Source: Candidatus Omnitrophota bacterium
Lineage (GTDB): Bacteria > Omnitrophota > Gorgyraeia > Zapsychrales > Zapsychraceae
DNA: 64,000 bases
Direction of reading: 5' to 3'
Assembly: GCA_028280285.1 (NCBI GenBank)
Contig: JANQMA010000026.1
Coordinates: forward strand, 64,822 to 128,821
Shown here: one piece after another, positions 50,187 through 59,948 of the stretch
How the letters are laid out: the number at the start of each line of letters is the position of its first letter
How positions within the stretch are numbered: the first letter of the stretch is position 1
The notes under the pieces: generated by a model
Seen by the model: the letters and a program-made list of their open reading frames with translations, nothing else
Database searches by the model: none
Told to the model about the DNA's origin: nothing
Program-made: the position numbers and the translations under genes

Positions 50187-50187
50187 T

Positions 50188-50244
50188 AATTAAGGGGACA
50201 CAATACTTAATTAAAAAATAATTAAGTATTGTGTCCCCTTAATT
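50188..50244 (+). terminator. perfect 25-bp-stem hairpin after the small secreted ORF
   Basis: The hairpin is aattaaggggacacaatacttaatt aaaaaat aattaagtattgtgtccccttaatt, with no clear U tract. Confidence 0.45.
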
Positions 50245-50267
50245 ACGAAAAATAGAAAGAAGGACGC

Positions 50268-50903: not shown

Positions 50904-52235
50904 ATGAAAAAGATAATCCTCGCCTCCAACTCGGCCCAACGCAAAAATCTGCTTAAGATGACGGGTCTTGCTTTTACGGTCAAACCATCTAATGTTGAAG
51001 AAGACAAAGTTATTACCTCCACATGTGCCGCGCTTGTGAAAAAGAATGCGTTTCTTAAAGCCCGGGATATCGCCTCGCGGCTTAAAGACGGTATTGTGAT
51101 TGGTTCTGACACAGTTGTTTATTTAGGGAAGAAAAAAATTATTCTCAAACCAAAAACGCTTAAACAAGCTAAAAGTGATCTGAAAAAGTTAATGGTGCGC
51201 CCTCAATGGGTGTATTCGGGGGTGGCCGTCATCAATGCCAAAACAGGACGCACACTCATCGATTATGAAAAGACAAAAGTGTTTATGAATAAGTTGAGTG
51301 ATAAAGAAATTAAAGCCTATCACAGAAAAGTTAATCCGCTGGATAAGGCCGGTGGGTTTGATATCGAGGGGCTTGGGAGTTTATTTATTCATCGTGTGGA
51401 AGGATGTTACACGAATGTCATTGGCATGCCGATGGCGAAATTAAAAAAGATGCTCGCCAAGTTTGGCGTCAGTATTTTAAGTGTGTTATTGGTGGTAACG
51501 GCCGGTGGATGCACGTCTGAGTTTAATCTGGCAACTAATCAGCAGGAATATCATATGTATAGCACGGCTAGAGAAGTTAAGATGGGGGCCAAGGTGGCCG
51601 CAAAGATTAATGAGAAGTTGGATCTTTATCATGGCGTTGAAGAGGATGAACGTGTGCGTGAGATCCTTGACCGTATCGTCGCGGTGTGTGACCGTCGGGA
51701 TATCCTTTATCATATCAAGATCATTGATGAAGATGTGGTCAATGCCTTTGCGCTTCCCGGAGGTTTTATTTATGTGTTTAAAGGCTTGATTGATGAGGCA
51801 GACACGGATGATGAGTTAGCCAGTGTTATTGCCCATGAAGTTGCTCATATAACAGCCCGGCATAATGTTAAGCGCCTGCAGGCCTCTTACGGGGCGATGT
51901 TGACTCAAATTGCTGCAACGAGTGTTGAACATCAAGGCTCAGCCGGTGCGGTGAGCTTTGCGATTGCGTCGATGATGAGCACTTATTCACAGGAAGCCGA
52001 GCATGAGGCCGATAGGTTATCGGTCAAATATCTGAAGGCAGCCGGCTATAATCCCAATGCCGCAGCTGATTTTCTGGAAAAGTTGAAAAAGAAAAACGAA
52101 GAGGCGGGTCCTCGCCGCTTTAGTTACTTTAAAACACATCCTAATACGGCGCGTCGTATCGGCGTTGTCCGTCAAGAAATTACCGGGCAACTTAATTTCC
52201 GCGATTATCTTAATATAACCGAAAATGAATATTAG
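50904..52235 (+). CDS. maf: Maf nucleotide pyrophosphatase fused in-frame to a lipoprotein-type M48 metallopeptidase
   Basis: The first ~185 aa are Maf (ILASNSAQRKNLL...GSDTVV...VIGMP). At residue 183 a signal peptide with a lipobox (MLAKFGVSILSVLLVVTAGGC) begins, followed by an M48 domain with HEXXH (HEVAHITARH) and a downstream E. Confidence 0.7.
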   Translation: MKKIILASNSAQRKNLLKMTGLAFTVKPSNVEEDKVITSTCAALVKKNAFLKARDIASRLKDGIVIGSDTVVYLGKKKIILKPKTLKQAKSDLKKLMVRPQWVYSGVAVINAKTGRTLIDYEKTKVFMNKLSDKEIKAYHRKVNPLDKAGGFDIEGLGSLFIHRVEGCYTNVIGMPMAKLKKMLAKFGVSILSVLLVVTAGGCTSEFNLATNQQEYHMYSTAREVKMGAKVAAKINEKLDLYHGVEEDERVREILDRIVAVCDRRDILYHIKIIDEDVVNAFALPGGFIYVFKGLIDEADTDDELASVIAHEVAHITARHNVKRLQASYGAMLTQIAATSVEHQGSAGAVSFAIASMMSTYSQEAEHEADRLSVKYLKAAGYNPNAAADFLEKLKKKNEEAGPRRFSYFKTHPNTARRIGVVRQEITGQLNFRDYLNITENEY

Positions 52236-52662
52236 AATCCTATTTTGTTTGGTGTGTGTCTTTTTGTCTTTTGGATGTTCGGCCCAGGCGCGTGACCAAG
52301 TGTGTATGAAAACGTATTGTTTTGATGTTGAGGTGATGCGCACAGCCGAGGAGCAAAGCCGCGGTATGCAGAATCGTGCACAAATAACCGAGAATGAAGG
52401 CATGTTGTTTGTGTTTAATTATGATGGCAGACATTCTTTTTGGATGAAGAATACACTAATCGCGCTTGATATGATCTGGATCGACCGCAATAATAAAGTT
52501 GTGACGATTGTCAAACAAGCCGGACCTTGCCTATCAGAGCGTTGTCCTGTTTTTAAACCTGAAAAAAAAGCGCGGTATGTTTTAGAAATTGGTGGCGGCT
52601 TAAGCGACAAGCTTGGCATTACTGTTGGCGATGATGTCGTTATGCGAATTATTGACAAATAA
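52225..52662 (+). CDS. DUF192 family secreted protein
   Basis: It has a signal peptide and conserved MLFVF...W and DMIWID motifs typical of DUF192. Confidence 0.6.
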   Translation: MNIRILFCLVCVFLSFGCSAQARDQVCMKTYCFDVEVMRTAEEQSRGMQNRAQITENEGMLFVFNYDGRHSFWMKNTLIALDMIWIDRNNKVVTIVKQAGPCLSERCPVFKPEKKARYVLEIGGGLSDKLGITVGDDVVMRIIDK

Positions 52663-52708
52663 CCGCAACAAGCACCGGGTGCCTGGGCACCCGGTGCTTG
52701 TTGCGGTT
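52661..52708 (+). terminator. perfect 23-bp-stem hairpin (terminator-like, no U tract) after the DUF192 gene
   Basis: The hairpin is aaccgcaacaagcaccgggtgcc tgg gcacccggtgcttgttgcggtt. Confidence 0.45.
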
Positions 52709-52787
52709 AAATAGAAAAATGATTGATAAGAGGACACTTTTTTATTACATTAACTTTGGGCATAACAATAAAACGAGGGTGACGTAA

Positions 52788-53219
52788 ATGAAACCGGTTA
52801 ATATACTTTTGGCAGAAGACAGCCCTACTGATGTGAAGATCATTGAATGGGTGCTGGAGAAAGAACTTCCGGAAAGACATTTATTTAAGGTAGGTGATGG
52901 CCAACAGGCCCTCGATTTTATTTTTCATACAGGTGATTATGAGGGTAAGGAAGATAAGGCGCCAACACCGGATTTGATTCTGCTTGATATAACAATGCCG
53001 AAAGTGGATGGTATTGAAGTGCTTAGAAAGGTTAAAGCCGACCAACGGTTTTGTGATATCCATGTGGTTATCTTAACTCATTCTCAGGATGAAGAAGATT
53101 TAAACAAGAGCTTTGAGCATGGCGCTGTTAGCTTTGTCCGCAAGACAGAAACCTACGAAGAGCTTCATAGTGTTCTTGAATTATTCCGTTCGTATTGGAC
53201 GGATAAACATGGTGATTAA
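52788..53219 (+). CDS. stand-alone response regulator receiver domain protein
   Basis: It has a CheY-like fold with the acidic pocket (LLAED), the phospho-acceptor D in LLDITMP, and a conserved K. Confidence 0.8.
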   Translation: MKPVNILLAEDSPTDVKIIEWVLEKELPERHLFKVGDGQQALDFIFHTGDYEGKEDKAPTPDLILLDITMPKVDGIEVLRKVKADQRFCDIHVVILTHSQDEEDLNKSFEHGAVSFVRKTETYEELHSVLELFRSYWTDKHGD

Positions 53220-53221
53220 AA

Positions 53222-53292
53222 TAAAAAAGCCGTAGGCCATAAGCTGTAAGCCATATGATATGGCTTACAGCTTATGGCCTACTGCTTTTTTG
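53222..53292. terminator. bidirectional rho-independent terminator between convergent genes
   Basis: An ~29-bp-stem palindrome (agccgtaggccataagctgtaagccatat g atatggcttacagcttatggcctactgct) is flanked by an A tract and a T tract. Confidence 0.65.
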
Positions 53293-53312: not shown

Positions 53313-53525
53313 TTAGTCGCAGCAAAGTACGTCATGTGGACGGATCGTTTTACGGCCGTTCGCTTCGCAACGTAATTGCGCTTGTTCAACCAGCCAGTAA
53401 ACATATTTGTTGATTGCATCAAGTGTATCGCCAGAAACGTTAAATGTTTTTTTGCCGCTTCCTTTAAGGGCTTCTTTTGTCTTTGATCCAACGATTAACA
53501 TATCCATTTTTTTCCCTTTTGCCAT
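53313..53525 (-). CDS. histone-fold singlet protein (bacterial histone-like, DUF1931-type)
   Basis: 70 aa (MAKGKKMDMLIVGSKTKEALKG...DTLDAINKYVYWLVEQAQLRCEANGRKTIRPHDVLCCD). A GRKTI(R)xxD(V/I) motif follows a long helix, as in archaeal HMf-type and bacterial singlet histones. A strong AAGGAG RBS lies 6 nt upstream, and the gene sits 10 nt after the lpd stop. Confidence 0.55.
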   Translation of the reverse strand: MAKGKKMDMLIVGSKTKEALKGSGKKTFNVSGDTLDAINKYVYWLVEQAQLRCEANGRKTIRPHDVLCCD

Positions 53526-53535
53526 TTTGTTCTCC

Positions 53536-55347
<1,812 letters not shown>

Positions 55348-55444: not shown

Positions 55445-56740
55445 CTACGTTACTTCGATTTTTTGCTCAAGCGCTGTACAAATAAACCGCAAGAACCGTG
55501 CTGCATCAGCACCATCAATAATGCGGTGATCATACGATAAACACAAAGGAAGTTTAAGCCGCGGTTCAAACTTGTCCCCATTCCATGTTGGCTCAAAGCC
55601 GCCGCGTGAAACACCGAGGATAGAAACTTCCGGCCAATTCACAATCGGTGTAAAAGCGTGTCCGCCGATGCCACCGAGATTAGTGACGGTAATGCTTCCG
55701 CCTTGTAAATCATTGGGTAAAACTTTGCGGTCGCGTGCTTTTTGCGCAACGCCCGTTAAATCATCGGTGATCGCCACGATGCCTTTTTGATCGACATCAC
55801 GCAGAACAGGAACAAGGAGACCGTTCGGTGTATCGACCGCCACACCGATATTGACATATTGTTTGAATATAATTTCATTGCTATCCGTATCAATACTGCA
55901 ATTAAACTGTGGAAATTCTTTTAGTGCATCGGCTAACACTTTAATCAAAAACGACGTCACGGTTATTTTGCGCTCAGGTGTTGAGACTTCTTTACGATAT
56001 TTATCTAAATCGGTAACATCCGCCTTATCAAATTGGGTGACGTGAGGGATGGTTTCCCAGCAATGTGCCATGTGATCTTTGGTCACTTGGCGGATCTTGG
56101 ACATCTTTTCACGTTTAACCGCGCCGAATTTGGTGAAATCAGGAAGCGGCTTAGTTTGCTTAACGGCACCACCACCGGATAAGACGATTTGTTTAGTAAA
56201 GGCTTTAACATCGTCTTTAGAAATGCGTCCGCCCGGACCGGTGCCGGGGACTTGCGAAAGATTAATGCCGAGCTCGCGGGCCAGACGTCTTACTGCCGGT
56301 GAAGCGGCGACATCGCCTTGGGCCGGGATAGCGTGATTGGGAAGAGGTGTGCGTGCGCTAACTGTTGCCGTTTGTGCTGCGGCCGCGGCCGGTTGCGGTG
56401 CGCTCGTCGGTGCCGGCGCTGGCGCCGCAGGAGCCGGTGCAGGAGCTTTTTTTGCTTCCGGTTTTTTTTCTTCAGCCGGTGCCGGTGCAGATGCAGCACC
56501 ACTTCCGCTCTCCTCAATGCGCATAACAACCGCCCCGATGTCAACCTCATCACCTTCATTAACCAAAATTGCGCGGACAACACCATCGCACGGGGCCGGG
56601 ACAGGAAGGGAGGCCTTATCTGTCTCTACTTCCAGGAGGTCTTGGTTTGCGGTGATCGTGTCACCGACTTTGACCAAAACGCCAATCACTGTTCCTGATG
56701 TTATGCCTTCGCCAACTTCTGGCAATGTGAAATCTAACAT
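55445..56740 (-). CDS. aceF: dihydrolipoamide acetyltransferase (E2), single lipoyl domain
   Basis: It has a lipoyl domain, an Ala/Pro-rich linker, a peripheral subunit-binding domain (SPAVRRLARELGINL) and a catalytic domain with DHRIIDGA. Confidence 0.9.
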   Translation of the reverse strand: MLDFTLPEVGEGITSGTVIGVLVKVGDTITANQDLLEVETDKASLPVPAPCDGVVRAILVNEGDEVDIGAVVMRIEESGSGAASAPAPAEEKKPEAKKAPAPAPAAPAPAPTSAPQPAAAAAQTATVSARTPLPNHAIPAQGDVAASPAVRRLARELGINLSQVPGTGPGGRISKDDVKAFTKQIVLSGGGAVKQTKPLPDFTKFGAVKREKMSKIRQVTKDHMAHCWETIPHVTQFDKADVTDLDKYRKEVSTPERKITVTSFLIKVLADALKEFPQFNCSIDTDSNEIIFKQYVNIGVAVDTPNGLLVPVLRDVDQKGIVAITDDLTGVAQKARDRKVLPNDLQGGSITVTNLGGIGGHAFTPIVNWPEVSILGVSRGGFEPTWNGDKFEPRLKLPLCLSYDHRIIDGADAARFLRFICTALEQKIEVT

Positions 56741-56899: not shown

Positions 56900-59590
56900 T
56901 TAGCTAATCAACGGGTTTTTCTTATCAGGGTTAATGCCTAAGTCTTTTGCCGATTTTTCAAGAGTGTCTTTATCAATCTTTCCGTCTTTATAAAGCGAAC
57001 CGAGGGTCGCAAAAACAATATGCTTCGCATCGACCTCAAAAAAGTCGCGCAGCGCACGGCGTGTTTCACTGCGTCCGAATCCGTCGGTGCCGAGGACAGC
57101 TGTTGTGCCCGGAATCCATTTGGCAATACCTTCAGGGAGAATTTTCATATAGTCCGACGCAAAAGTAAATACGCCTGATTCGGATTCAAGAATTTGTTGC
57201 ACATAAGGTTTTTTAGGTTCATCCGGGGCGTTAAGCAAATTCGTGCGTTCCACATGAAGTGCATCCTTACGTAGTTCAGTGTAGCTGGTGACACTCCATA
57301 CATCGGTGGACACATTGTATTTTTCTTCGAGTATTGTTTGGGCCTCCAGCACGCTGTTTGTAATCGAACCGCTGCCAAAAAGGTGTGCTTTAAGTTCTGC
57401 TTGCTTTGCGGAGGCTTTGAATTTATACATGCCTTTGAGAATGCCTTCATCAATATGCTCGCCCTGCGGTTTGGCCGGCATTTTATAATTTTCATTACCT
57501 ACGCTGACGTAGTAAAAAATATTTTCTTGTTCCTCGCCATACATGCGACGGATACCGTCACGAATAATAACCGGAATTTCATACGCAAAGGACGGATCAT
57601 AGGCCACCATATTCGGGACAGAGGAAAGAAGCACGTGGCTGTGGCCGTCTTGATGCTGGAGACCTTCGCCGTTAAGCGTTGTGCGTCCGGCTGTTCCGCC
57701 GATGAGAAATCCGCGGCAGCGCGAATCAGCGGCAGCCCAAATCAAATCCCCCACACGCTGCGGACCAAACATAGAGTAATAAATATAAAAAGGAATCGTA
57801 TTAATGCCGTAATTGGAATAAGCGGTTCCCGAAGCGATGAAGGAGGCCATGGAGCCTGCTTCGTTAATGCCTTCTTCCAAGATTTGTCCGTCGATTGATT
57901 CTTTGTAATAGAGAAGGCTGTCGGAATCCACCGGTTCATACAACTGACCGACACTTGAGTAAATGCCGCATTGGCGGAACAGGGATTCCATGCCGAAGGT
58001 GCGCGCCTCATCAGGAATGATCGGCACAATCAACTTTCCAATATCTTTATCTTTTAATAACTTTGATAAAATACGCACATACACCATAGTGGTGGAGACT
58101 TCGCGATCGCCGGAACCTTCATCGAACTCGGCGAGTGATTCGGCCGACGGTGTCGGCAGTGGATCATTGGTCTCAGCGCGTTGCGGGACATAGCCGCCGA
58201 GCGCCTTGCGGCGTTCGTGTAAATACTGCATTTCTTCGGAATCTTCCGGTGGCAAATAAAACGGCATCTTTTCGACATCTTCGTCAGAAAGAGGGATGTT
58301 GAACCGCGAACGGAACTGTTTCATTTCTTCTTCGTTGAGTTTCTTCTGATTGTGGGCGACGTTTTTACCCTCGCCACTTTCGCCAAGGCCGTAGCCTTTA
58401 ATCGTTTTACAAAGAATAACACTCGGCCCGTGCTTATAATCAAAAGCCGCTTTATACGCGGCATAAACCTTGGCCGGATCATGGCCACCGCGTTGAAGTT
58501 TTTCGATATCGTGATCAGACATGTTTTCGACTAATTTAGCAACATCTTGATCCTTGCCGAAGAATTCTTTACGGGCATAGCCGCCGTCTTCGACCGAAAA
58601 TTTTTGGTATTGTCCGTCAACGGTCTCACCCATGATGCGGGCCAGTTTGCCGGTTGTATCGTTTTTCAAAAGAGGGTCCCAGTTGCTGCCCCAAACAACT
58701 TTAATGGTATTCCACTGGGCGCCGCGGAAGAGGGCTTCCAGTTCCTGGATAATCTTGCCGTTGCCGCGCACAGGTCCGTCCAAACGCTGCAAGTTACAGT
58801 TAATGACAAAAATCAAATTGTCGAGCTTTTCGCGCGAGGCCATATTGATTGCCCCAAGGGTTTCCGGCTCATCCGTTTCCCCATCGCCAATAAAACACCA
58901 AATCGTTGCATCATCTTTTGGTTTAAGTCCGCGGTTTTCAAGATATTTCATATAACGCGCGTGATACAGCGCATTGATGGGGCCGAGCCCCATAGATACT
59001 GTTGGAAATTGCCAGAAGTTCGGCATAAGCCATGGATGCGGATAAGACGAGAGGCCTTGCTCTTCCTGAAGCTCCCGTCGGAAATTACTTAAATTCTGAT
59101 CATTGAGGCGTCCTTCAATATAAGCCCGCGAATACATTCCCGGTGACGCATGCCCCTGAAAGTAAACAAAGTCGCCGCTAAAATCTTTTGTGCGTGCACG
59201 GAAAAAATGATTAAATCCGACTTCATACAGAGTGGCTGATGAGGCGTACGTCGAAATGTGTCCGCCAATGCCGTTTTCGGCTTCATTGCCTTTGACAACC
59301 ATAGCCATCGCATTCCAACGGACAATACTTTTAATACGCCGCTCGATCTCACGGTTGCCCGGATAATGGGGCTGATTATCGGTACCGATCGTATTGACAT
59401 AAGGCGTGTTAACGGAAAAGGGGAGGGTTACGCCGGCTTCCTGAGCACGGATTTGCAGTCTTTGTAAGATTTCTTTGGCTTGTTCGTGGGATCCGTTTTT
59501 AAGGACATATTCCAGTGAGTCAAGCCACTCGCGGATTTCGATTTCCTTGACTTCTGTGTTATGGGAGTTGGCGGCGCCTTCAGAACTCAT
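56900..59590 (-). CDS. aceE: pyruvate dehydrogenase E1 component, homodimeric AceE type
   Basis: 896 aa single-chain E1 with a ThDP-binding region (GDGETDEPE) and the typical AceE N- and C-terminal domains. Confidence 0.9.
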   Translation of the reverse strand: MSSEGAANSHNTEVKEIEIREWLDSLEYVLKNGSHEQAKEILQRLQIRAQEAGVTLPFSVNTPYVNTIGTDNQPHYPGNREIERRIKSIVRWNAMAMVVKGNEAENGIGGHISTYASSATLYEVGFNHFFRARTKDFSGDFVYFQGHASPGMYSRAYIEGRLNDQNLSNFRRELQEEQGLSSYPHPWLMPNFWQFPTVSMGLGPINALYHARYMKYLENRGLKPKDDATIWCFIGDGETDEPETLGAINMASREKLDNLIFVINCNLQRLDGPVRGNGKIIQELEALFRGAQWNTIKVVWGSNWDPLLKNDTTGKLARIMGETVDGQYQKFSVEDGGYARKEFFGKDQDVAKLVENMSDHDIEKLQRGGHDPAKVYAAYKAAFDYKHGPSVILCKTIKGYGLGESGEGKNVAHNQKKLNEEEMKQFRSRFNIPLSDEDVEKMPFYLPPEDSEEMQYLHERRKALGGYVPQRAETNDPLPTPSAESLAEFDEGSGDREVSTTMVYVRILSKLLKDKDIGKLIVPIIPDEARTFGMESLFRQCGIYSSVGQLYEPVDSDSLLYYKESIDGQILEEGINEAGSMASFIASGTAYSNYGINTIPFYIYYSMFGPQRVGDLIWAAADSRCRGFLIGGTAGRTTLNGEGLQHQDGHSHVLLSSVPNMVAYDPSFAYEIPVIIRDGIRRMYGEEQENIFYYVSVGNENYKMPAKPQGEHIDEGILKGMYKFKASAKQAELKAHLFGSGSITNSVLEAQTILEEKYNVSTDVWSVTSYTELRKDALHVERTNLLNAPDEPKKPYVQQILESESGVFTFASDYMKILPEGIAKWIPGTTAVLGTDGFGRSETRRALRDFFEVDAKHIVFATLGSLYKDGKIDKDTLEKSAKDLGINPDKKNPLIS

Positions 59591-59948
59591 ATTTTGCTCT
59601 TTCTGTTCTATATAAAGGTTAGAATATGTTGAAAAAAGTTGTAAAAGGTTGAAAGAGGGGTTAGGTTACCCAATGTTGCTTAGTGCTAATTAGAGTAACT
59701 TTTTGGAACATCATGCAACGTCAAATCTTTTTTCAACGTTTTCCAACCTATTTAAACCTTTTTGAACCTTAATATATTAATATAGTTATTATGTTTGTGC
59801 TTGTAAGCGAAGCTATTGTAGTATGCAAGGGAGTAATGTGCAAGCATATTTTGCTGTCTAATAGGCAATATAAGGTGATTATTCTGTTGTATGTGCTATC
59901 CATGATTGCTACAATTCTCCTAAGCGCGGAAACTTATTAAAGGACAAT

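What the first reader, a model, noticed from the sequence alone, without database searches (positions are those of the whole stretch)
53313..53536. Histone-fold singlet gene directly downstream of the pyruvate dehydrogenase operon
The 70-aa ORF begins at a strong AAGGAG RBS 10 nt after the lpd stop. It carries the GRKTIRPHDV motif after a long amphipathic helix (LDAINKYVYWLVEQAQLRCEA) and a lysine-rich N-terminus (MAKGKK...LIVGSKTKEALK). This matches the histone fold seen in archaeal HMf-type histones (…AGRKTIKAEDI…) and in the bacterial singlet histone family (DUF1931-type). Bona fide histone-fold nucleoid proteins are rare and only recently characterised in bacteria. Here one appears to be co-transcribed with aceE-aceF-lpd, and a bidirectional terminator at 53222-53292 closes the unit. 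With HU not seen in this window and the genome full of structured palindromes, this protein could be a major nucleoid constituent.
Basis: partly seen in the sequence, partly recalled or inferred. Interest (0 to 1): 0.65.

Follow-up and report, generated by a model that had tools for sequence, protein, structure and literature searches.

The report
Bacterial histone gene appended to PDH operon
A real, conserved 70-residue gene for a bacterial histone of the recently described "face-to-face" type sits just after the pyruvate dehydrogenase genes of an Omnitrophota bacterium, but that placement is found in only one close relative, so this is a new member of a known family rather than a new system.

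Summary
Window 53313..53525 (minus strand) encodes a 70-aa protein. Its ATG lies 10 nt after the lpd stop codon, an AAGGAG site overlaps that stop, and a very stable bidirectional hairpin terminator (53223-53291) closes the unit.

The protein is a genuine histone-fold singlet:
- The AlphaFold2 model (pLDDT 86.8) shows alpha1, L1, a long alpha2, L2 and a one-turn alpha3.
- The best structural and sequence match is HLp of Leptospira perolatii (9QT0), ahead of HBb (Bdellovibrio) and the archaeal HTkC.
- It carries the face-to-face (FtF) signature R52/N56/R58/T60/D65 with the published spacing.

That makes it an alpha3-truncated FtF-type bacterial histone, not a true DUF1931 (pseudodimer) protein. 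Homologues 70-85% identical are common in Bacteriovoracia and Omnitrophota. AceE homologues place the window in Omnitrophota.

The link to lpd is lineage-specific. One close relative shares it. Two slightly more distant relatives have aceE-aceF-lpd without the histone. None of 103 other histone loci (65 genomes, 36 metagenome contigs, 2 Logan contigs) has PDH genes beside it. Elsewhere the gene usually has its own upstream region.

The likely function is non-specific DNA wrapping or compaction. Abundance, oligomeric state and co-transcription remain untested. Interest is modest.

The parts
53313..53525 (-). Histone gene: 70 codons plus a TAA stop. It encodes an alpha3-truncated, FtF-type bacterial histone (7.8 kDa, pI 9.3).
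   Evidence: Translation. PDB sequence hits: HLp 9QT0 E=1.9e-9, HBb 3.3e-5, HTkC 7.5e-4. Family profile against the PDB: HLp 6.4e-16. AF2 model pLDDT 86.8 with helices 13-21, 32-55 and 63-66. Foldseek top hit 9qt0_A, TM 0.91 normalised to the target, rmsd 1.3 A. dN/dS 0.13.
53532..53537 (-). Shine-Dalgarno AAGGAG, 6 nt upstream of the ATG. It overlaps the TAA stop of lpd (53538..53536).
   Evidence: Read directly from the sequence. The orthologous locus L067 has AAAGGAG in a 39-nt spacer.
53223..53291 (.). Bidirectional intrinsic terminator shared by the histone/PDH unit (-) and the convergent response-regulator gene (+).
   Evidence: 34-nt arms, 97% complementary, with A6 and T6 flanks. RNA fold -52.8 kcal/mol, z = -11.3.
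53536..55347 (-). lpd (E3 dihydrolipoamide dehydrogenase with an N-terminal lipoyl domain). It is the gene immediately upstream, with no terminator between it and the histone gene.
   Evidence: Pfam Pyr_redox_2 6e-62, Pyr_redox_dim 6e-36, Biotin_lipoyl 2e-21. No terminator-like or promoter-like site on the minus strand between 53540 and 55120.
55445..56740 (-). aceF (E2 dihydrolipoamide acetyltransferase), part of the presumed transcription unit.
   Evidence: Pfam 2-oxoacid_dh, Biotin_lipoyl, E3_binding.
56900..59590 (-). aceE (homodimeric-type PDH E1), first gene of the unit. A 358-nt intergenic region with promoter-like sites lies upstream.
   Evidence: Pfam PDH_E1_M, Transketolase_N, Transketolase_C_1. 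Promoter-like sites at 59842..59815 and 59807..59779.

Best explanation
The gene encodes a small, basic bacterial histone of the alpha3-truncated face-to-face (FtF) class.

**Proposed mechanism (inferred).** Two chains form a head-to-tail histone-fold dimer through their long alpha2 helices. Two dimers most likely close into a torus-shaped tetramer through the end of alpha2, loop L2 and the one-turn alpha3 (R52, N56, R58). The tetramer binds DNA without sequence specificity through the alpha1 lysines (K15, K17, K21), the L1/L2 loops (G32, K59, T60) and the Lys-rich N-terminal tail. It wraps roughly 50-60 bp, as shown experimentally for HLp of Leptospira perolatii, and so acts as a nucleoid-associated protein.

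**Expression (inferred).** In this Omnitrophota lineage the gene has been moved to the 3' end of aceE-aceF-lpd. It is most likely transcribed by read-through from the PDH promoter(s). It is translated from its own strong AAGGAG site, and the transcript ends at the shared hairpin terminator.

**Shown here:** the fold, family affinity, signature residues, conservation, purifying selection and gene arrangement.

**Inferred, not shown:** tetramer formation, DNA wrapping, abundance and co-transcription.
For: **Fold.** AF2 model pLDDT 86.8, helices 13-21, 32-55 and 63-66. The top Foldseek hits are all histones: HLp 9qt0 (TM 0.91 normalised to the target, rmsd 1.3 A, 45% identity), then HBb and HTkC.

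**Sequence.** phmmer scores HLp at 1.9e-9, HBb at 3.3e-5 and HTkC at 7.5e-4. The family profile scores HLp at 6.4e-16 (61 bits), against 36 bits each for HBb and HTkC.

**FtF signature.** The published conserved residues are R48/N52/R54/T56/D61 in the FtF logo, equal to HLp R49/N53/R55/T57/D62 (PMC11390915, PMC12701072). They map to window R52/N56/R58/T60/D65 with identical spacing. Across 43 homologues N56, R58, T60 and D65 are invariant, and position 52 is R (26) or K (17). According to PMC11390915, bacterial dimer histones lack the R and the N.

**DNA contacts.** HLp DNA-contact residues A13, S14, K15, K17, K21, T27, G29, T56 and T57 (PMC12701072) correspond to window G13, S14, K15, K17, K21, V30, G32, K59 and T60. 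Six of the nine are identical.

**A real gene.** 303 homologous clusters and dN/dS 0.13.

**Taxonomy.** Every named hit among the 120 best AceE homologues (70-75% identical) is Omnitrophica/Omnitrophota. An Omnitrophota contig of 2,008,960 bp (L010) carries a histone homologue, and the AceE homologue P0134 is recorded on a contig of that same length.

**Operon.** A 10-nt gap, no terminator between lpd and the histone gene, and a strong terminator after it. The same layout occurs in L067.
Against: - No multimer model could be made, so tetramer versus dimer rests on signature residues and on closer similarity to HLp only.
- The subfamily keeps the lysine of the RKT motif (K59), which is typical of nucleosomal and HBb-like dimer histones and is not strongly conserved in FtF histones (PMC11390915).
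- It has a 3-residue insertion in L1 relative to HLp.
- HLp interface residues S52, T61 and F63 are A55, H64 and V66 here.
- Identity to HLp is only about 43-45%.
- No expression, proteomic or DNA-binding data exist for this organism.
- A weak internal promoter within the lpd 3' end or in the AT-rich aceF-lpd spacer cannot be excluded.
- No Pfam model reaches its gathering score.
Confidence: 0.7

Rival explanations
1. The protein is an HBb-like 'bacterial dimer' histone. It stays a dimer and bends DNA (or coats it end-on) like Bd0055/HBb of Bdellovibrio, rather than forming a wrapping tetramer.
For: It has the same alpha3-truncated fold. HBb structures are Foldseek hits 3-6 (TM 0.79-0.82 normalised to the target) and score 3.3e-5 by sequence. 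The RKT lysine (K59), invariant in this family, is a feature of bacterial dimers and nucleosomal histones (PMC11390915). Many relatives come from Bdellovibrionota.
Against: The family profile scores HLp 25 bits higher than HBb. R52 and N56, the residues that bacterial dimers lack according to PMC11390915, are present, and N56 is invariant. The Bdellovibrionota relatives are Bacteriovoracia, where FtF histones rather than dimer histones are reported (PMC11390915).
Confidence: 0.2
2. The histone-fold protein is functionally tied to pyruvate dehydrogenase, for example as a regulator of the operon or an accessory subunit. Its position after lpd would then reflect a shared function rather than chance.
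For: It is tightly packed after lpd (10 nt here, 39 nt in L067) under a common terminator in two related genomes.
Against: The adjacency is absent from relatives with AceE 83-84% identical. L071 keeps the same downstream DUF192/Maf-M48/PyrE genes but has no histone. It is also absent from 65 genome loci, 36 metagenome loci and two further Logan contigs. Elsewhere the gene usually has its own upstream region: the median gap is about 183 nt, and the upstream neighbour is divergent in 31 of 69 loci. All DNA-contact and fold residues of the family are retained.
Confidence: 0.04
3. It is a spurious or decaying ORF in the terminator-proximal region.
For: It is short (70 aa), no Pfam or NCBIfam model passes threshold, and its GC content is lower than that of the PDH genes (41.9% against 48-51%).
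Against: There are 303 homologous clusters at 70-85% identity. Every invariant and nearly invariant family position is kept. dN/dS is 0.13. It has a perfect RBS and a confident histone-fold model.
Confidence: 0.01

Closest known systems
HLp, the tetrameric face-to-face (FtF) histone of Leptospira perolatii (PDB 9QT0/9QT1/9QT2; PMC12701072)
   Same: It is the best sequence and structure match. Shared features are a similar size, a one-turn alpha3, a shortened alpha2, a basic N-terminal tail, the RD clamp (R58-D65), the tetramer residues R/N/R, and most DNA-contact residues.
   Different: Identity is only about 43-45%. The window protein has a 3-residue insertion in loop L1 (GSGKKT against SKG). 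It has K59 where HLp has T56, and A55, H64 and V66 at HLp interface positions S52, T61 and F63. The phylum differs (Omnitrophota against Spirochaetota). The gene context differs too: hlp lies next to smc and map in Leptospira, whereas here the gene follows lpd.
FtF-type histones of Bacteriovoracia (Bacteriovorax, Halobacteriovorax), catalogued in PMC11390915
   Same: These are the closest homologues, 62-79% identical over the full length. The core is about 90% identical between Omnitrophota MAGs and the cultured Bacteriovorax sp. DB6_IX. The invariant residues are the same.
   Different: They belong to a different phylum and have a different gene neighbourhood, usually with their own upstream region and never next to PDH genes. 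The window and L067 copies sit on longer branches. The Halobacteriovorax copies (L046, L052) and L048 lack the L1 insertion.
HBb (Bd0055), the dimeric bacterial histone of Bdellovibrio bacteriovorus (PDB 8CMP/8FVX/9EZZ; PMC10627809, PMC11317129)
   Same: It shares the alpha3-truncated histone fold and the RKTxxxxD motif. It is an abundant nucleoid protein in a bacterium.
   Different: Identity is about 32%. HBb lacks the R and N dimer-dimer residues that the window protein has. HBb bends or coats DNA as a dimer.
HTkC and other archaeal FtF histones (PDB 9F2C; PMC11390915)
   Same: It has the same fold and predicted torus architecture (Foldseek TM 0.87 normalised to the target, 38% identity; profile E 5.6e-8).
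   Different: It is archaeal, generally has no tail, and lacks the RKT lysine.
Pfam DUF1931 (Aq_328-type pseudodimeric double histone fold)
   Same: The relationship is only a distant histone-fold one. Some database records label FtF histones 'DUF1931 domain-containing'.
   Different: The Pfam score is 12.9 bits against a 21.8-bit cut-off. DUF1931 proteins proper are doublets of about 138 profile positions and form a separate sequence cluster (PMC12701072). The window protein is a singlet.

Membership tests
Histone fold (helix-strand-helix, three helices) | alpha1-L1-alpha2-L2-alpha3 topology with a long central helix | tested here: met
   AF2 pLDDT 86.8 with helices 13-21, 32-55 and 63-66. 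All 50 listed Foldseek PDB hits are histone-fold proteins.
alpha3-truncated prokaryotic histones (PMC11390915) | alpha3 of only 3-4 residues, and alpha2 shorter than in nucleosomal histones | tested here: met
   Model alpha3 spans residues 63-66 (4 residues) and alpha2 is 24 residues. The best matches are the alpha3-truncated HLp, HBb and HTkC.
Face-to-face (FtF) histones | Conserved R48, N52, R54, T56 and D61 (HMM-logo numbering), including the dimer-dimer residues R48 and N52 | tested here: met
   Window R52, N56, R58, T60 and D65 have identical spacing. In 43 homologues N56, R58, T60 and D65 are invariant and position 52 is R or K. The reference residues come from PMC11390915 and PMC12701072.
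Face-to-face (FtF) histones | Torus-shaped homotetramer (the feature by which the class is defined) | not testable with these tools
   Only monomer prediction is offered and no multimer model was made. This needs AlphaFold-Multimer, SEC-MALS or a crystal structure.
Face-to-face (FtF) histones | Closer in sequence to experimentally verified FtF members than to dimer or nucleosomal histones | tested here: met
   The profile scores HLp at 61.3 bits, HBb at 36.1 and the archaeal FtF HTkC at 35.8. Nucleosomal and NF-Y types score 22 bits or less.
Face-to-face (FtF) histones | Non-specific DNA binding and wrapping of about 50-60 bp | not testable with these tools
   Six of the nine HLp DNA-contact residues are identical. 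Binding itself needs EMSA or tethered-particle assays.
Bacterial dimer histones (HBb-like) | Absence of the R48/N52 dimer-dimer residues, and sequence clustering with HBb | tested here: not met
   R52 and N56 are present. HBb scores 25 bits lower than HLp.
Pfam DUF1931 (pseudodimeric histones) | Score above the Pfam gathering threshold, and a double histone fold | tested here: not met
   12.9 bits against 21.8, with only 33 residues matched in a profile of 138 positions. The protein is a 70-aa singlet.
Pfam CBFD_NFYB_HMF (archaeal histone / NF-Y) | Score above the gathering threshold | tested here: not met
   17.0 bits against 21.4, matching residues 39-68 only.
IHF-related histones of Omnitrophota (PMC11390915) | A structured dimerising C-terminal tail, and an IHF-like gene in the same operon | tested here: not met
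   The protein ends 4 residues after alpha3. No IHF/HU-like sequence was found in the window by tblastn, and the neighbours are lpd and a response regulator.
Major nucleoid-associated protein | High cellular abundance and nucleoid enrichment | not testable with these tools
   No transcriptome or proteome exists for this uncultured organism. There is only an analogy with L. interrogans and B. bacteriovorus (PMC10627809).

The most novel reading that the evidence does not exclude
In this Omnitrophota lineage the chromatin protein has been wired into the pyruvate dehydrogenase transcript. Histone dosage, and hence nucleoid compaction, would then track flux through the acetyl-CoA-producing step of central metabolism. 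The Lys-rich histone might also be a target of acetyl-CoA- or acetyl-phosphate-dependent acetylation. That would be a bacterial parallel to the metabolic control of chromatin in eukaryotes. The evidence does not exclude this: the packing is tight, the terminator is shared, no internal promoter was detected, and the layout is kept in two genomes. Nothing positively supports it either, and the arrangement is evolutionarily young and narrow.
Probability: 0.06. Interest if true: 0.65.

Novelty: new member of a known kind. Interest (0 to 1): 0.3.

Why it matters
Bacterial histones were recognised as real chromatin proteins only in 2023-2025 (HBb, the Leptospira histones, HLp). The published surveys name Spirochaetota, Planctomycetota, Bdellovibrionota and Myxococcota as the main bacterial homes of FtF histones.

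This finding adds a well-supported FtF-type histone in Omnitrophota, a phylum of mostly uncultured, very small and possibly host-dependent bacteria. In the papers I searched, only the different 'IHF histones' are mentioned for that phylum.

It also exposes an annotation gap. No Pfam, NCBIfam or PHROG model recognises the protein, so genome pipelines tend to leave it unnamed or mislabel it; the source names seen for homologues were 'hypothetical protein', 'DUF1931 domain-containing protein' and 'histone H3/H4'.

Finally, the protein is about 90% identical in its core between Omnitrophota and Bacteriovoracia, although synonymous sites have diverged. That indicates either very strong constraint or old transfer between two phyla with predatory or parasitic members. 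The PDH linkage itself looks like a recent gene relocation and should not be over-interpreted.

Tried and rejected
- **Conserved synteny with PDH.** I ran tblastn of Lpd, AceF, AceE, the response regulator, DUF192 and Maf-M48 against 65 genome loci and 36 metagenome loci, and none lay next to the histone. Relatives L070 and L071 have the PDH operon without a histone. A functional PDH link was rejected.
- **Family models.** Pfam gave only sub-threshold hits. NCBIfam gave none and PHROGs none.
- **Phage or mobile origin.** A scan of viral contigs with the family alignment found no relative. The window is ordinary core chromosome, with prs, dnaB, bamA, lysS, clp, radA and metG.
- **RNA elements.** There are no Rfam families and no tRNAs in the window.
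- **Internal promoter for the histone.** No sigma-70-like site lies on the minus strand in the last 1.5 kb of lpd. By eye there is only a TATAAA with a poor -35 element, and it is not conserved in L067. This is inconclusive, because Omnitrophota promoters are not characterised.
- **HU/IHF in the window.** No tblastn hit. I rejected this as evidence about the genome.
- **Recent horizontal transfer between Omnitrophota and Bacteriovoracia.** The proteins are about 90% identical but the DNA only 73-76%, so any transfer is not recent. The NJ tree on about 60 columns is unresolved and has no support values.
- **AFDB fold search.** The library was not available.
- **Multimer prediction.** I did not attempt one, because only window or database sequences may be submitted and the tool predicts single chains.
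- **Supplementary files of PMC11390915.** A search for Omnitrophota or Bacteriovoracia found no text hits, so I could not check whether Omnitrophota FtF histones are already in their tables.

Full report
**1. What is in the sequence**

The finding lies on the minus strand. Window 53313..53525 encodes 70 codons plus a TAA stop: MAKGKKMDMLIVGSKTKEALKGSGKKTFNVSGDTLDAINKYVYWLVEQAQLRCEANGRKTIRPHDVLCCD.

- The upstream ORF (53536..55347) is a dihydrolipoamide dehydrogenase with an extra N-terminal lipoyl domain.
- Its TAA stop (53538..53536) overlaps an AAGGAG (53537..53532) that lies 6 nt before the histone ATG. Ten nucleotides separate the stop from the start.
- Further upstream are aceF (55445..56740) and aceE (56900..59590).
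- Downstream, 21 nt after the histone stop, is a 34+34-nt inverted repeat (53223-53291). It is flanked by an A-run and a T-run and is shared with a convergent CheY-like response-regulator gene (52788..53219).
- On the histone strand this repeat folds at -52.8 kcal/mol (z = -11.3 against shuffles) and is followed by a U-run.
- An alternative upstream ATG (85-aa ORF) is not supported, because homologues begin at MAK....

**2. It is a real gene**

A search of 5.8 billion proteins returned 303 clusters with E<=1e-3, and the best 120 are 66-100% identical. An alignment of 43 of them shows 21 invariant and 16 nearly invariant columns, all of which the window protein keeps. Against its orthologue in the closest relative (L067), dN/dS is 0.13. 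dS is about 1.2 and close to saturation, so the ratio is approximate. The spurious-ORF reading is rejected.

**3. It is a histone fold of the alpha3-truncated, face-to-face kind**

- **Model databases.** Pfam gives only sub-threshold hits (CBFD_NFYB_HMF 17.0 bits against 21.4; DUF1931 12.9 against 21.8). NCBIfam and PHROGs give nothing.
- **Solved structures, by sequence.** The protein matches HLp of Leptospira perolatii (9QT0, E=1.9e-9), HBb/Bd0055 of Bdellovibrio (3.3e-5) and the archaeal HTkC (7.5e-4). With the family profile these become 6.4e-16, 4.5e-8 and 5.6e-8.
- **Structure prediction.** An AlphaFold2 model built on the 43-sequence alignment has mean pLDDT 86.8, with helices at 13-21, 32-55 and 63-66. 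That is alpha1, a long alpha2 and a one-turn alpha3.
- **Structure comparison.** Foldseek against the PDB ranks HLp first (TM 0.91 normalised to the target, rmsd 1.3 A, 45% identity). HBb and HTkC follow, then NF-Y and nucleosomal histones.

The literature defines FtF histones by a torus tetramer and by conserved R48, N52, R54, T56 and D61 in their HMM logo. R48 and N52 make the dimer-dimer contacts, and bacterial dimer histones such as HBb lack them (PMC11390915). In HLp these residues are R49, N53, R55 and D62 (the RD clamp) (PMC12701072). In the window protein they are R52, N56, R58, T60 and D65 with the same spacing. Across the 43 homologues N56, R58, T60 and D65 are invariant, and position 52 is R or K.

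HLp residues that contact DNA in the co-crystals are A13, S14, K15, K17, K21, T27, G29, T56 and T57. They correspond to window G13, S14, K15, K17, K21, V30, G32, K59 and T60.

The short Lys-rich tail (MAKGKK) fits the published remark that bacterial FtF histones commonly have positively charged tails. Some homologues carry much longer K/A/T-rich tails.

The differences from HLp are a 3-residue L1 insertion, the lysine of an RKT motif (K59), and A55, H64 and V66 at three HLp interface positions.

I file the protein under the FtF class on sequence criteria. The defining tetramer could not be tested here.

**4. Which organism, and how widespread**

Every named hit among the 120 best homologues of the window's AceE (70-75% identical) comes from Candidatus Omnitrophica/Omnitrophota MAGs. 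An Omnitrophota contig of 2,008,960 bp (L010) carries a histone homologue, and the AceE homologue P0134 is recorded on a contig of that same length. The rest of the window is ordinary core chromosome (prs, dnaB, bamA, lysS, clp ATPase, radA, metG, alr). The window is therefore from an Omnitrophota bacterium.

Among one-genome-per-species representatives, 65 loci encode a relative 62-79% identical. Most are Bacteriovoracaceae or Halobacteriovoraceae, including cultured Bacteriovorax sp. DB6_IX and Halobacteriovorax strains. Seven are labelled Omnitrophota.

In a full scan of 1.84 billion 50%-identity representatives the wider superfamily has only 574 clusters at E<=1e-3 and 68 at <=1e-10. Histone doublets of 118-130 aa are among the best hits. 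The fold is indeed rare in bacteria, but this particular subfamily is well populated and already described for Bacteriovoracia (PMC11390915).

In the papers I could search, Omnitrophota is mentioned only for the unrelated 'IHF histones'. The supplementary text of PMC11390915 gave no hit for the phylum.

**5. The PDH linkage is young and narrow**

| Group | PDH genes next to the histone? |
|---|---|
| Closest relative L067 (AceE 89%, Lpd 81-83%, histone 73%) | Yes: aceE-aceF-lpd-histone-terminator, 39-nt spacer with its own AAAGGAG |
| L070 and L071 (AceE 83-84%) | No: aceE-aceF-lpd followed directly by convergent genes |
| 65 genome loci | None |
| 36 metagenome loci | None |
| Two further Logan contigs (L068, L069) | None |

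L071 keeps the same downstream DUF192, Maf-M48 and PyrE genes as the window but has no histone.

Across 69 loci the histone usually has its own upstream region:
- The median gap is about 183 nt.
- The upstream gene is divergent in 31 of 69 loci.
- Only 5 loci have a same-strand gap under 60 nt, and 3 of those are the window lineage.

This agrees with the general rule that NAP genes are monocistronic (PMC11390915). L068 shows a plausible TTGACG-N17-TAAATT promoter.

The histone gene's GC content (41.9%, GC3 38.6%) is below that of the PDH genes (48-51%) and close to the window mean (43.5%). That is compatible with insertion at this site.

The simplest history is that the gene was relocated to the 3' end of the PDH operon in the common ancestor of the window organism and L067.

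**6. How it is probably expressed here**

No terminator-like or sigma-70-like site lies on the minus strand between the lpd start region and the histone gene. There is no room for a promoter in the 10-nt spacer. The only strong terminator follows the histone gene.

Transcripts that cover lpd must therefore run through the histone gene. The histone is most likely made from the PDH mRNA, which could start upstream of aceE (358-nt intergenic region with promoter-like sites) or in the AT-rich aceF-lpd spacer.

Its perfect AAGGAG, stronger by eye than the sites before aceE and lpd, would allow higher translation than the enzymes. This is inference. An unrecognised promoter inside the lpd 3' end cannot be excluded.

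**7. Claims that do not hold, or cannot be judged**

- 'HU not seen in this window' is true but carries no weight for a whole genome.
- 'Genome full of structured palindromes' amounts, within this window, to three long perfect hairpins at gene ends between 50.1 and 53.3 kb.
- 'Major nucleoid constituent' is reasonable by analogy. The L. interrogans FtF histone ranked second to fourth in abundance among quantified proteins (second of 2,433 and fourth of 1,502) and is probably essential, and HBb is a major chromatin component (PMC10627809). It is untested for this organism.

**8. An observation beyond the finding**

Omnitrophota and Bacteriovoracia histones are intermixed in a neighbour-joining tree. 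That tree has short branches, about 60 columns and no support values.

The 58-residue core is 90% identical between Omnitrophota MAGs L008, L010 and L012 and cultured Bacteriovorax sp. DB6_IX, yet only 73-76% identical at the DNA level. This speaks for very strong purifying selection, possibly after an old transfer between the phyla, and not for recent transfer or contamination. No relative was found in viral contigs.

The window and L067 pair sits on longer branches than the other members, so the lpd-linked copies have diverged faster while keeping every conserved position.

**9. Verdict**

The thing is a new member, in Omnitrophota, of a known and recently characterised kind: FtF-type alpha3-truncated bacterial histones.

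The operon placement is a lineage-specific curiosity rather than a conserved system.

- Confidence that it is a DNA-binding histone-fold NAP: about 0.9.
- Confidence that it works as an HLp-like wrapping tetramer expressed from the PDH transcript: about 0.7.
- Interest: 0.3.

Noticed in passing
window 53539-55347 (-) and 55448-56740 (-): Lpd (E3) carries its own N-terminal lipoyl domain (Pfam Biotin_lipoyl, residues 3-75). That domain is about 71% identical to the lipoyl domain of the adjacent AceF, which suggests domain duplication or gene conversion within the operon. The same architecture is seen in relatives L067, L070 and L071.
   Followed up: partly
window 50187-50245, 52660-52709, 53223-53291: Three unusually long, (near-)perfect hairpins with 24-34-nt arms sit at gene 3' ends within 3.1 kb. 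Nothing comparable occurs elsewhere in the 64 kb. Their sequences are unrelated to one another. They look like over-long intrinsic terminators rather than a repeat family.
   Followed up: partly
window 50904-52235 (+); L071 7064-8425: A Maf (nucleotide pyrophosphatase) domain and a Peptidase_M48 domain are fused in one 443-aa ORF. The fusion is conserved in a related Omnitrophota contig.
   Followed up: no
loci L008, L010, L012 (Omnitrophota) versus L017 (Bacteriovorax sp. DB6_IX): The histone core is about 90% identical at the protein level across two phyla but only 73-76% identical at the DNA level, and the NJ tree intermixes the phyla. This means either H4-like constraint or old transfer between phyla. 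No viral carrier was found.
   Followed up: partly
proteins P0086, P0033, P0054; P0243-P0251: Some close homologues carry long K/A/T-rich N-terminal tails (up to about 93 aa in total). The best-scoring 50%-cluster representatives are 118-130-aa histone doublets, like the doublet reported for Bacteriovorax sp. ICPB 3264.
   Followed up: no
window 53316-53525 (-): No Pfam model reaches its gathering score, and no NCBIfam or PHROG model hits this protein. Database names for its homologues range from 'hypothetical protein' to 'DUF1931 domain-containing' and 'histone H3/H4'. Bacterial FtF histones are an annotation gap.
   Followed up: yes
window 53316-53324 (-), residues 68-70, plus C53: The window protein ends in Cys-Cys-Asp and has three cysteines in all. 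C53 is common in the family, but no aligned homologue has the C-terminal CC. Its significance is unknown.
   Followed up: no
window 52788-53219 (+): A stand-alone CheY-like response-regulator gene converges on the histone gene and shares the terminator. It is absent from the equivalent position in L067 and L071, so this intergenic site seems to accept insertions.
   Followed up: partly
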